A stretch of DNA of 64,000 nt, taken from Phycisphaerae bacterium (lineage in GTDB: Bacteria; Planctomycetota; Phycisphaerae; UBA1845; UTPLA1). Position numbers and translations under genes: made by a program. The stretch is from positions 737,768-801,767 of the forward strand of contig DATEMU010000015.1 of assembly GCA_035275405.1 (NCBI GenBank). Direction: 5' to 3'. A model generated the notes under the pieces. The model ran no database searches. It was not told where the DNA came from and was given only the letters and a program-made list of their open reading frames with translations. Of this stretch, positions 22,315-22,579 are shown piece by piece (position 1 is the stretch's first letter; every line of letters starts with the position of its first letter).

Positions 22315-22560
22315 GTGAAGGAAAAGACCGTTCTGCGGAAACTTCGCTCGGTTCGCTCATCTCTAAAAAAGGTGAGAACCCGATTGAAGTTGAACCCCCG
22401 CGATGACGTGCTCTTTGAAAACGCGGTAGCTGAACTCGACAAGCTTTGCAGAGGAATTAGCGGCGAGAGCCGTCGCCAATCGGCCAAAGGCCAGATTGGC
22501 AAACTCCTCAACAGCCTGGGAACGATTGCAAAGTTTGTTAAGGACTGCTTTTTCGAATGA
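22315..22560 (+). CDS. hypothetical small protein (81 aa) of the RT operon
   Basis: GTG start 5 nt after an AAGGAG RBS; lower GC content matching the island; no recognisable motif. Confidence 0.5.
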   Translation: MKEKTVLRKLRSVRSSLKKVRTRLKLNPRDDVLFENAVAELDKLCRGISGESRRQSAKGQIGKLLNSLGTIAKFVKDCFFE

Positions 22561-22579
22561 GTCGCATAGCGACTCATTC
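22549..22579 (+). promoter_or_regulatory. perfect 14-bp inverted repeat (hairpin or operator) spanning the orf81 stop
   Basis: ttcgaatgagtcgc-ata-gcgactcattcgaa; no U-tract follows; lies 18 nt upstream of the HTH gene start. Confidence 0.5.

What the first reader, a model, noticed from the sequence alone, without database searches (positions are those of the whole stretch)
22549..22579. Perfect 14-bp inverted repeat overlapping the orf81 stop, just upstream of the HTH gene
ttcgaatgagtcgc-ata-gcgactcattcgaa is a perfect 14-bp inverted repeat with a 3-nt loop. The orf81 stop codon TGA lies inside the left arm, and the arm ends 18 nt before the HTH start. No U-tract follows, so it is not a classical intrinsic terminator. 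Candidates are an operator for the XRE-type regulator (autoregulation), a transcript-processing or stability hairpin, or a translational coupling/attenuation element between orf81 and the HTH-RT genes.
Basis: seen in the sequence. Interest (0 to 1): 0.5.

Follow-up and report, generated by a model that had tools for sequence, protein, structure and literature searches.

The report
Private RNA hairpin in a retron
The palindrome is real and far beyond chance, and it lies at the toxin/antitoxin gene boundary of a Type VI retron (a reverse-transcriptase phage-defence system), where it would form a very stable RNA hairpin; related retrons lack it, so it is a local embellishment of a known system, not a new mechanism.

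Summary
The 14-bp perfect inverted repeat exists, but 3 nt to the right of the stated coordinates: arms 22552-22565 and 22569-22582, loop ATA. It is the longest perfect hairpin in the 64-kb window. No shuffle reached 14 bp, and the RNA fold is -21.3 kcal/mol (z -7.9).

The setting is a Type VI retron of a Phycisphaerae MAG:
- promoter-like site 22063-22090;
- structured ncRNA;
- orf81, the small-protein (SP) toxin, 22315-22560;
- HTH, 22597-22977;
- RT, 22977-23999.

A long-range pairing (22249-22262 with 22613-22626) is kept, with different sequences, in all 10 related loci. The functional "hybrid RNA" therefore runs through the palindrome.

The strong hairpin itself is not conserved. Four clade-A relatives have only short hairpins of unrelated sequence over the SP stop, and more distant relatives have none. 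I found no promoter beside it, no U-tract after it and no second copy of the arm. RBS occlusion is no greater than chance.

My best reading is a lineage-specific RNA stem-loop at the SP/HTH boundary. It would cap and stabilise the SP-containing RNA and could gate HTH translation (confidence about 0.4). An operator for the HTH is unlikely, and a neutral fold-back duplication cannot be excluded. Interest is low to moderate.

The parts
22063..22090 (+). Promoter-like site of the retron operon (TTGACT, 16-nt spacer, TG-TATTAT; 10 of 12 matches). The predicted transcript start is near 22097.
   Evidence: It is the only + strand promoter-like match in 21900-24400.
22097..22314 (+). Non-coding 5' part of the retron hybrid RNA (msr-msd-like region with several short hairpins). 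The boundaries are approximate.
   Evidence: Fold of 22080-22640: -248.6 kcal/mol, z -9.1. There is no Rfam match. The architecture matches the published Type VI hyRNA/ncRNA.
22100..22131 (+). 5' strand of the basal stem. It pairs with 22302-22336 and buries the SP Shine-Dalgarno (AAGGAG 22304-22309) and the GTG start (22315).
   Evidence: MFE and (I9). This is analogous to SL1 of Retron-Sen3.
22249..22262 (+). IR1, the 5' arm of the long-range pairing with IR2 (CCGGGTTGCGATGC).
   Evidence: 14 nt, 100% complementary to 22613-22626 (I6). An equivalent pairing with different sequences is predicted in all 10 related loci.
22315..22560 (+). orf81, the small-protein (SP) toxin gene of the Type VI retron (81 aa, GTG start).
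   Evidence: Homologous small ORFs lie directly upstream of the HTH gene in L001, L036, L038 and L043. There is no Pfam or PADLOC hit. The role is inferred from Retron-Vpa2 and Retron-Sen3.
22552..22565 (+). Left arm of the palindrome (TTCGAATGAGTCGC): the last two SP codons (TTC GAA), the stop TGA at 22558-22560, and 5 further nt.
22566..22568 (+). Loop, ATA.
22569..22582 (+). Right arm (GCGACTCATTCGAA), non-coding. It ends 3 nt before the HTH Shine-Dalgarno. Its end, TTCGAA followed by TG, creates an in-frame ATG at 22582.
   Evidence: The hairpin is kept (pair probability about 1) in the local, full-length and IR1-IR2-constrained folds.
22586..22590 (+). Shine-Dalgarno (GGAGG) of the HTH gene. 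A weak basal extension of the stem (GCUUU 22547-22551 with GAGGC 22587-22591) can cover it.
   Evidence: This is not above chance. In the full-length fold 22589-22596 instead pairs with 22140-22147.
22597..22977 (+). HTH (XRE/Cro-C1 type) gene, the antitoxin and RT-associated regulator of Type VI retrons.
   Evidence: Pfam HTH_3 6.9e-12; PADLOC HTH_VI 2.5e-13. The start aligns with the TTG start of L043.
22613..22626 (+). IR2, the 3' arm of the long-range pairing (GCATCGCAACCCGG), inside HTH codons 6-10.
22977..23999 (+). Retron reverse transcriptase (340 aa). Its start overlaps the HTH stop (TGATG).
   Evidence: PADLOC RT_VI 1e-50; Pfam RVT_1. The NAxxH motif is present; the catalytic box reads YGDN.

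Best explanation
The palindrome is transcribed as part of the Type VI retron's hybrid RNA, the single transcript that carries the reverse-transcription template and the SP toxin gene. There it forms a very stable, self-contained stem-loop. Its 5' arm is the last two SP codons, the stop codon and 5 further nt. Its 3' arm abuts the HTH ribosome-binding site.

My proposed mechanism is a boundary hairpin for the SP-containing RNA. It would block 3'-to-5' exonucleases, or mark a processing end, so that the ncRNA+SP part accumulates over the HTH-RT message. As a secondary effect it would sit against the HTH initiation region, where only a ribosome finishing SP can melt it.

Shown: the hairpin, its statistics, the retron context, and the fact that the structured RNA spans it. 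Inferred: that it is transcribed, that the RNA ends or is protected there, and any effect on expression. It is a lineage-specific addition, not a core part of the retron mechanism.
For: 1. The hairpin is exceptional: 14 perfect bp, -21.3 kcal/mol, z -7.95. It persists in every fold context tested, including the alternative IR1-IR2 conformer, which lies only 4.9 kcal/mol above the MFE.
2. The locus is a Type VI retron. The single promoter-like site is upstream of the ncRNA, so the palindrome lies in the operon transcript.
3. [quoted passage not shown] In Retron-Vpa2 the hyRNA is about 470 nt. Here the predicted start (about 22097) to the end of the hairpin (22582) is about 486 nt, and the hairpin ends 3 nt before the HTH RBS.
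4. RNA-level constraint around it is demonstrable. IR1-IR2 is kept, with different sequences, in 10 of 10 relatives. Junction regions are more stable than codon-synonymous nulls (WIN p 0.007; relatives combined p 0.024).
5. Clade-A relatives carry short stop-spanning hairpins of unrelated sequence. Several contain G-U pairs, so they pair on the sense strand only.
6. One distant Type VI locus (L014) has a hairpin plus U-run at the same junction. Other Bacteroidota loci have IR2 plus a U-run there.
Against: - The strong hairpin is not conserved. Sliding-window p values in relatives are 0.03-0.98. Fisher's combined p for clade A without the window is 0.04-0.48, and for all relatives 0.59-0.96.
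- RNAalifold finds no consensus structure.
- Shuffled junctions give a similar topology 30-55% of the time.
- The conserved IR2 lies 31 nt downstream of the hairpin. An RNA ending at the hairpin would therefore lose a pairing that is clearly under selection.
- There is no U-tract, so any 3' end would need processing, which cannot be seen in sequence.
- No expression data exist for this organism.
- Neither published study describes such a hairpin.
Confidence: 0.4

Rival explanations
1. Translational-coupling gate. The closed hairpin hinders independent 30S loading at the HTH RBS. A ribosome terminating SP unwinds the stem and frees the site, so antitoxin synthesis follows toxin synthesis (the 'RNA unfolding' model of coupling).
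For: - The stop codon is inside the 5' arm and the 3' arm ends 3 nt before the SD.
- In the local fold the SD pairing probability falls from 0.81 to 0.20 when a ribosome footprint at the SP stop is masked.
- SP-HTH spacing is tight throughout the family. Three relatives have an in-frame candidate HTH start overlapping the SP stop, ATGA or TAATG (L003, L041, L042).
- SP/HTH is a toxin-antitoxin pair in Retron-Sen3.
- The mechanism is established elsewhere (PMC12548453; PMC4538824).
Against: - SD pairing in the native sequence is no higher than in synonymous-codon and shuffled-spacer nulls (WIN 0.72 against 0.74, p 0.63; Fisher 0.62).
- In the full-length fold the SD-spacer pairs with 22140-22147 whether or not the hairpin is open.
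- In Retron-Vpa2, SP translation is off at rest while HTH must be present. Strict coupling would conflict with that.
Confidence: 0.25
2. No selected function. It is a lineage-specific perfect palindrome made by a fold-back (template-switch) copy of the SP 3' end, or by 'correction' of an older quasi-palindrome, and is tolerated in a fast-evolving spacer.
For: - The right arm is an exact reverse-complement copy of the SP terminus, and the stem is perfect.
- The spacer between the SP stop and the SD is the least conserved part of the junction. It is visibly diverged between the window and L043, whereas my by-eye count of the SD-to-IR2 stretch gives about 88% identity.
- The nearest relative, L043, has only a weak 5+3-bp hairpin (z -0.26).
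- There is no conservation in the wider family.
Against: - A stem of about -21 kcal/mol lying over a toxin's stop codon and against an antitoxin's RBS is unlikely to be expression-neutral.
- The surrounding RNA is under structural selection.
- Clade-A relatives tend to have some hairpin at the same place.
Confidence: 0.2
3. DNA operator. The dimeric XRE-type HTH binds the palindrome as double-stranded DNA to autoregulate HTH-RT, by roadblock or at an internal promoter.
For: - It is a perfect dyad next to the gene of an HTH_3 protein.
- A half-site-like TCGAA-N2-GTCGC lies at 22105-22116, just downstream of the predicted -10. I chose this motif after seeing the match.
- HTH antitoxins of classical toxin-antitoxin systems often bind palindromes (general knowledge).
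Against: - No promoter-like site lies near the palindrome.
- No second full site exists.
- 14-bp arms with a 3-nt spacer are far longer than typical XRE half-sites.
- Relatives with 43-55% identical HTH proteins have no shared half-site or spacing. Several of their hairpins need G-U pairs, so they are not DNA dyads.
- HTH neutralises SP from a foreign promoter and co-purifies with RT and hyRNA.
Confidence: 0.08
4. It is a protein-binding RNA module (a docking helix for HTH or RT in the hyRNA ribonucleoprotein), or a U-tract-less transcriptional pause/attenuator ahead of HTH-RT.
For: [quoted passage not shown]
- The hairpin is a static, independent arm in both predicted conformers.
Against: - It is not conserved among relatives that share the RT and HTH.
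- The neighbouring ispG gene ends in a hairpin followed by a U-run, so hairpin-plus-U-run ends do occur in this genome. The palindrome has none.
Confidence: 0.07

Closest known systems
Type VI retron hybrid RNA (hyRNA) of Retron-Vpa2 (Zhang et al. 2025, bioRxiv 10.1101/2025.10.22.683967)
   Same: - Gene order ncRNA-SP-HTH-RT.
- The SP RBS and start are buried in a stem.
- A long-range inverted repeat ties the 3' part of the transcript back to the ncRNA.
- Duplicated short motifs (CTCCTTAG twice) are complementary to the SP RBS, which fits their riboregulator idea.
- Transcript length is similar: about 486 nt to the hairpin, against about 470 nt.
   Different: - No stop-codon-spanning hairpin is described there.
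- The host phylum differs (Planctomycetota) and the SP family is unrelated.
- The RT catalytic box here is YGDN, not YADD.
- Nothing has been tested experimentally here.
Retron-Sen3 / cl2075 extended transcript with IR1-IR2 (Garcia-Rodriguez et al. 2026, bioRxiv 10.64898/2026.04.27.721009)
   Same: - IR1 lies inside the ncRNA and IR2 downstream of the SP stop, kept with compensatory changes.
- The SP RBS sits in the basal stem.
- The HTH RBS is predicted to pair with an ncRNA segment.
- The enriched RNA ends at the HTH RBS.
- SP and HTH form a toxin-antitoxin pair.
   Different: - In this lineage IR2 lies after the HTH start, at +53 from the SP stop, rather than between the stop and the RBS.
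- In the window the stop-to-RBS interval is occupied instead by the local palindrome.
- No such hairpin is reported for cl2075.
Intercistronic stabiliser hairpins (for example REP elements between genes of E. coli operons; from my own knowledge)
   Same: A stable stem-loop without a U-tract lies between two cistrons of one operon, placed to protect the upstream RNA from 3' exonucleases and to skew the expression ratio.
   Different: It is a single copy with no family of repeats in the window. It overlaps the stop codon rather than lying downstream of it. The effect on RNA stability is untested.
Translational coupling by RNA unfolding (phage f1 genes VII/IX, MS2 coat/lysis, rpmI-rplT; review PMC12548453)
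   Same: The structure involves the end of the upstream ORF and lies next to the downstream RBS. A terminating ribosome must melt it.
   Different: Direct RBS occlusion is weak and not above chance. The spacing is +36 nt.
Rho-independent terminator
   Same: A stable stem-loop at the end of a gene.
   Different: There is no U-run. The stem is only 50% G+C. The essential genes HTH and RT lie immediately downstream in the same operon.

Membership tests
Type VI retron (Mestre 2020 classification; the surrounding system) | The RT belongs to the Type VI RT clade. | tested here: met
   PADLOC RT_VI is the best hit, 1e-50, covering 11-267 of 279 profile positions. The NAxxH motif is present.
Type VI retron (Mestre 2020 classification; the surrounding system) | A Cro/C1-type HTH gene lies immediately upstream of, or overlapping, the RT gene. 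| tested here: met
   HTH_VI 2.5e-13 and HTH_3 6.9e-12. The HTH stop and RT start overlap, TGATG at 22975-22979.
Type VI retron (Mestre 2020 classification; the surrounding system) | A small accessory protein (SP) gene lies upstream of the HTH gene. | tested here: met
   orf81 is 81 aa, with homologues in the same position in L001, L036, L038 and L043. Membership of one of the four published SP clusters was not testable.
Type VI retron (Mestre 2020 classification; the surrounding system) | A structured ncRNA/hyRNA with a sequestered SP RBS and a long-range IR1-IR2 pairing. | tested here: met
   Fold z -9.1 with the SP SD and start in the basal stem. IR1-IR2 is 14 of 14 bp and is kept, with different sequences, in 10 of 10 relatives. 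This is in silico only.
Type VI retron (Mestre 2020 classification; the surrounding system) | A catalytically competent RT (YxDD box) that produces msDNA. | tested here: inconclusive
   The box reads YGDN here and in nine of the 10 closest homologues (FGDN in the tenth); more distant hits that match the motif have YxDD or FxDD. msDNA production is not testable with these tools.
Rho-independent (intrinsic) terminator | A stable stem-loop followed directly by a U-run. | tested here: not met
   The stem is present, but it is followed by UGCGGAGGCUAUCG. The scan finds 0 terminator-like sites in 21900-24400.
Operator of an XRE-family repressor | A dyad-symmetric site overlapping or adjacent to the regulated promoter. 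| tested here: not met
   The dyad is present, but the only promoter-like site is at 22063-22090, about 460 bp upstream.
Operator of an XRE-family repressor | Half-sites or spacing are conserved, or co-vary, in loci with related HTH proteins; the protein binds the site. | tested here: not met
   Relatives share no half-site or fixed spacing. Binding is not testable here.
Translational coupling by RNA unfolding | The inhibitory structure includes the end of the upstream ORF, so a terminating ribosome opens it. | tested here: met
   The stop codon and the two preceding codons form part of the 5' arm.
Translational coupling by RNA unfolding | The downstream RBS is occluded by that structure more than expected by chance. 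| tested here: not met
   SD pairing is 0.72 against a null mean of 0.74 (p 0.63); Fisher across 7 loci is 0.62. It also depends on context.
REP / MITE-like repeated palindromic element | Many similar copies in intergenic regions of the genome. | tested here: not met
   Only the two arms themselves match within 3 mismatches beyond chance level in 64 kb (7 hits against 10.2 expected). The rest of the genome was not available.
Bacterial SECIS / stop-codon read-through signal | A UGA followed by a hairpin inside a continuing ORF. | tested here: not met
   Reading through the TGA meets TAG two codons later (GTC GCA TAG, 22561-22569).

The most novel reading that the evidence does not exclude
The hairpin is a termination-gated switch inside a retron hybrid RNA. 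Only ribosomes that complete the SP toxin melt the stem. That event licenses synthesis of the HTH antitoxin and RT repressor from the same molecule, and may also free the right arm to compete with the basal stem segment 22105-22116 that keeps SP silent. This would hard-wire a toxin-to-antitoxin feed-forward loop into the defence RNA. It would be a third regulatory solution among Type VI retrons, beside msDNA-dependent derepression (Vpa2) and post-translational restraint (Sen3).
Probability: 0.15. Interest if true: 0.55.

Novelty: new member of a known kind. Interest (0 to 1): 0.3.

Why it matters
The locus adds a Planctomycetota representative to the Type VI retrons, whose unusual hybrid RNA (template plus toxin mRNA) was described only in 2025-2026 preprints. 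It confirms, with independent sequences, that the long-range IR1-IR2 pairing and the buried toxin RBS are general features. The palindrome shows that the toxin/antitoxin junction of this RNA is evolutionarily plastic. If the hairpin does set the toxin:antitoxin ratio or the 3' end of the hyRNA, it would be a simple handle for tuning such systems. As it stands it is an ordinary kind of element, an intercistronic stem-loop, in an interesting system.

Tried and rejected
- **Rfam** on 21500-24600 at E <= 1 gave only a chance sRNA hit elsewhere.
- **Alignment-based covariation** failed. MAFFT plus RNAalifold on five clade-A junctions gave no consensus structure, because the hairpins are not alignable by sequence.
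- **Topology test.** I counted pairs enclosing the stop and SD bases paired to SP codons. Shuffles matched it 30-55% of the time, so I dropped it as evidence.
- **Enlarging the family.** Profile searches with SP and with HTH returned only loci I already had, or near-identical copies such as L045.
- **Plasmid tblastn** with the RT found only distant retron RTs. I did not follow it further.
- **Intrinsic terminator**, rejected: no U-run.
- **REP or MITE**, rejected: no other copies.
- **SECIS or read-through**, rejected: TAG two codons on.
- **Palindrome as the msd (msDNA) stem-loop**, rejected. In Vpa2 the msDNA maps to the first arm, upstream of SP, and the same ncRNA architecture is present here.
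- **Alternative HTH start at ATG 22582**, rejected. It has no SD, and in L043 the equivalent frame is closed.
- **C-box (R-M controller) operator.** The resemblance is only generic HTH_3 similarity (E about 1e-3), and from memory the GAGTC...GACTC orientation is opposite to the C-box.

Full report
**Observation**

The window reads ...GACTGCTTTTTCGAATGAGTCGCATAGCGACTCATTCGAATGCGGAGGCTATCGATG.... The repeat finder reports arms 22552-22565 and 22569-22582, 14 nt, 100% complementary, separated by ATA (I7).

- The orf81 stop TGA (22558-22560) lies inside the left arm.
- The HTH ATG is at 22597, preceded by GGAGG at 22586-22590. That is 14 nt after the right arm, not 18.
- No U-run follows the stem.
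- It is the only perfect hairpin of at least 10 bp (loop at most 10 nt) in the 64-kb window, and 0 of 100 shuffles reached 14 bp.
- As RNA the 31-mer folds at -21.3 kcal/mol (z -7.95, 0 of 200 shuffles).
- In an unbiased sliding-window comparison over 8 kb it ranks at p = 0.002-0.006.
- The arm is not a dispersed repeat.

**Context**

PADLOC models identify the two downstream genes as HTH_VI (2.5e-13) and RT_VI (1e-50). Pfam gives HTH_3 and RVT_1. This is a Type VI retron. The identical RT in the protein database is labelled as coming from a Phycisphaerae MAG.

The gene order matches the published SP-HTH-RT arrangement:
- promoter-like site at 22063-22090;
- about 220 nt of non-coding RNA;
- orf81 (81 aa);
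- HTH;
- RT, with its start overlapping the HTH stop.

In Retron-Vpa2 the ncRNA and the SP toxin gene form one abundant 'hybrid RNA' of about 470 nt, in which the SP RBS is sequestered. [quoted passage not shown] In Retron-Sen3, SP is a toxin and HTH its antitoxin. An IR1-IR2 long-range pairing flanks SP, and the enriched transcript extends to the HTH RBS.

**Anatomy of the RNA here**

- The region 22080-22640 folds at -248.6 kcal/mol (z -9.1).
- Its basal stem (22100-22131 with 22302-22336) buries the SP Shine-Dalgarno and GTG start.
- A 14-nt perfect long-range repeat (22249-22262 with 22613-22626) corresponds to IR1-IR2 (I6).

I fetched relatives:
- clade A: L043, L036 (with L037 and L045), L038, L001 (with L002); RT 51-62% identical;
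- clade B: L030, L040, L003, L039;
- clade C: L041, L042;
- more distant loci.

In all 10 distinct clade A-C loci an IR1-IR2 duplex is predicted at the equivalent positions with different sequences. Examples are CCGGGUUGCGAUGC/GCAUCGCAACCCGG here, CGGGUAGU.GGCGG... in L030 and GCGUAGUGGAGGG/CCUUCCGCUACGC in L041. The selected RNA structure therefore spans the palindrome, the HTH RBS and the first HTH codons.

Forcing IR1-IR2 costs only 4.9 kcal/mol relative to the MFE. The palindrome hairpin is intact in both conformers. It behaves as a static, independent arm.

**Is the hairpin conserved?**

Mostly not.

*Clade A.* The sequence just after the SP stop can pair with the last SP codons:

| Locus | Pairing |
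|---|---|
| L036 | CCUG..CCG-UUAG-CGG..CAGG |
| L038 | UUUUUGCCGA/UCGGCGGAGG |
| L001 | UGCGGCUG/CAGUCGUA |
| L043 | UGAGU...ACUCA |

Several of these need G-U pairs, so they are sense-strand RNA pairings and not DNA dyads.

Cut to their own boundaries, L036 and L038 beat shuffles (z -3.0 and -3.5), while L001 and L043 do not. Those boundaries were chosen after the fact.

The unbiased tests are weak:
- sliding-window p is 0.03-0.06 for L036, 0.12-0.51 for L038 and 0.26-0.66 for L001 and L043;
- Fisher's combined p for clade A without the window is 0.04-0.48;
- shuffled junctions give a comparable topology 30-55% of the time;
- RNAalifold finds no consensus.

*Clades B and C and the Bacteroidota Type VI loci.* These show no such hairpin. 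In the Bacteroidota loci the junction instead carries a C-rich IR2 followed by a U-run. L014 has a local hairpin plus U-run there.

The stop-to-SD spacer is the least conserved part of the junction between the window and its nearest relative L043. My by-eye count puts the SD-to-IR2 stretch at about 88% identity.

The junction as a whole is somewhat more stable than nulls that keep the SP protein sequence: window p 0.007, relatives combined p 0.024.

*Operator.*
- No promoter-like site lies near the dyad.
- No second site exists.
- Relatives share no half-site or spacing.
- The published HTH functions are protein-protein and ribonucleoprotein.
- A half-site-like TCGAA-N2-GTCGC sits at 22105-22116, just downstream of the predicted -10. 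I chose that motif after seeing the match, and that segment is already committed to the basal stem.

*Terminator.* There is no U-run, whereas the neighbouring ispG gene ends in a hairpin followed by UUUUAUUU.

*Translational coupling.*
- The geometry fits the RNA-unfolding model.
- In a local fold, SD pairing drops from 0.81 to 0.20 when a ribosome is placed on the SP stop.
- In the full-length fold the SD-spacer (22589-22596) pairs with 22140-22147 regardless.
- SD pairing in the native sequence is no greater than in synonymous or shuffled nulls (0.72 against 0.74, p 0.63).

*Stability or processing.* This cannot be tested in sequence. It fits best with where the abundant transcript ends in Sen3, and with a predicted start-to-hairpin length of about 486 nt against about 470 nt in Vpa2. 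Its main difficulty is that the conserved IR2 lies 31 nt beyond the hairpin.

**Verdict**

The palindrome is real, is statistically exceptional, and very probably exists as an RNA stem-loop inside a Type VI retron hybrid RNA. It is a private, lineage-specific elaboration of the SP/HTH junction, not a conserved part of the retron.

| Reading | Confidence |
|---|---|
| Boundary or stabiliser hairpin for the SP-containing RNA, with a possible secondary gating effect on HTH initiation | 0.4 |
| Pure translational-coupling gate | 0.25 |
| Neutral fold-back duplication or corrected quasi-palindrome | 0.2 |
| DNA operator | 0.08 |
| Protein-docking helix or pause site | 0.07 |

The element type is ordinary. 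The system around it is a new member, in a new phylum, of a recently characterised kind.

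Noticed in passing
window 23556-23567 (RT residues 194-197); also P0002-P0010: The RT catalytic box reads YGDN instead of the near-universal YxDD. Nine of the 10 closest homologues (40-62% identity) have YGDN and the tenth has FGDN. More distant hits that match the motif have YVDD, YGDD or FVDD. This is a conserved Asp-to-Asn change at a metal-binding position, in a clade whose retron architecture is otherwise intact.
   Followed up: partly
window 22124-22131 and 22174-22181, against 22302-22309: CTCCTTAG occurs twice in the ncRNA, once in the basal stem and once in the hairpin CCUCCUUAGGGAGG. 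Both copies are complementary to the SP RBS region CTAAGGAG. A cDNA of the second copy would be complementary to the first, which fits the msDNA-riboregulator idea proposed for Retron-Vpa2.
   Followed up: partly
window 22249-22262 / 22613-22626, and the equivalent sites in L001, L003, L030, L036, L038-L042: The long-range IR1-IR2 pairing is predicted, with different sequences, in all 10 related loci. In this lineage IR2 overlaps HTH codons 6-10 (conserved ATR motif). In L001 no canonical start codon opens the HTH reading frame across IR2, so the HTH ORF appears to start downstream of it, yet IR2 is still conserved.
   Followed up: yes
window 22140-22147 / 22589-22596; L036 1542-1549 / 1877-1884: An 8-nt perfect complement links an ncRNA segment to the HTH SD/spacer (CGAUAGCC/GGCUAUCG here, CGCCUCCU/AGGAGGCG in L036). 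It resembles the HTH-RBS pairing predicted for Retron-Sen3. The ncRNA partner sits at a different place in the two loci.
   Followed up: partly
window 22105-22116: TCGAACGGTCGC, just downstream of the predicted -10, resembles the palindrome arm TCGAATGAGTCGC with a spacer one base shorter. As RNA it could compete with the left arm for the right arm. I picked the motif after seeing the match, and overall it has 4 hits against 1.08 expected, two of which are the palindrome itself.
   Followed up: partly
window 22042-22064: A terminator-like hairpin AUCUCU-UAC-GGAGAU followed by UUUUAUUU lies after ispG (20758-21963). It abuts or overlaps the -35 of the retron promoter. The simple scan missed it because the stem has fewer than 3 G-C pairs.
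   Followed up: partly
L005, L009, L012, L017, L021, L034 (junction after the SP stop); L014 2130-2153: Bacteroidota Type VI retrons have a conserved C-rich motif plus a U-run immediately after the SP stop. It pairs with a G-rich segment upstream of SP (an IR2 equivalent). L014 has a local hairpin ACUCC...GGAGU followed by UUUUUU there, which is terminator-like, between SP and HTH.
   Followed up: partly
L003 630-633, L041 1072-1075, L042 883-887: In three relatives the SP stop overlaps an in-frame candidate HTH start codon (ATGA or TAATG), the classical signature of translational coupling.
   Followed up: no
window 22582-22584: TTCGAA is self-complementary, so the end of the right arm recreates TTCGAATG. 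This gives an ATG in frame with HTH (a 5-codon extension, MRRLS) with no SD. In L043 the equivalent frame is closed by a stop.
   Followed up: yes
L042 2294-3355; L036 3434-4691; window 23959-24255: The genes just downstream of the RT differ between relatives. L042 has a 353-aa protein with a faint SIR2_2 hit. L036 has a 106-aa ORF, a DUF7689 protein and a second HTH. The window has a 98-aa ORF with no family hit that overlaps the RT 3' end.
   Followed up: no
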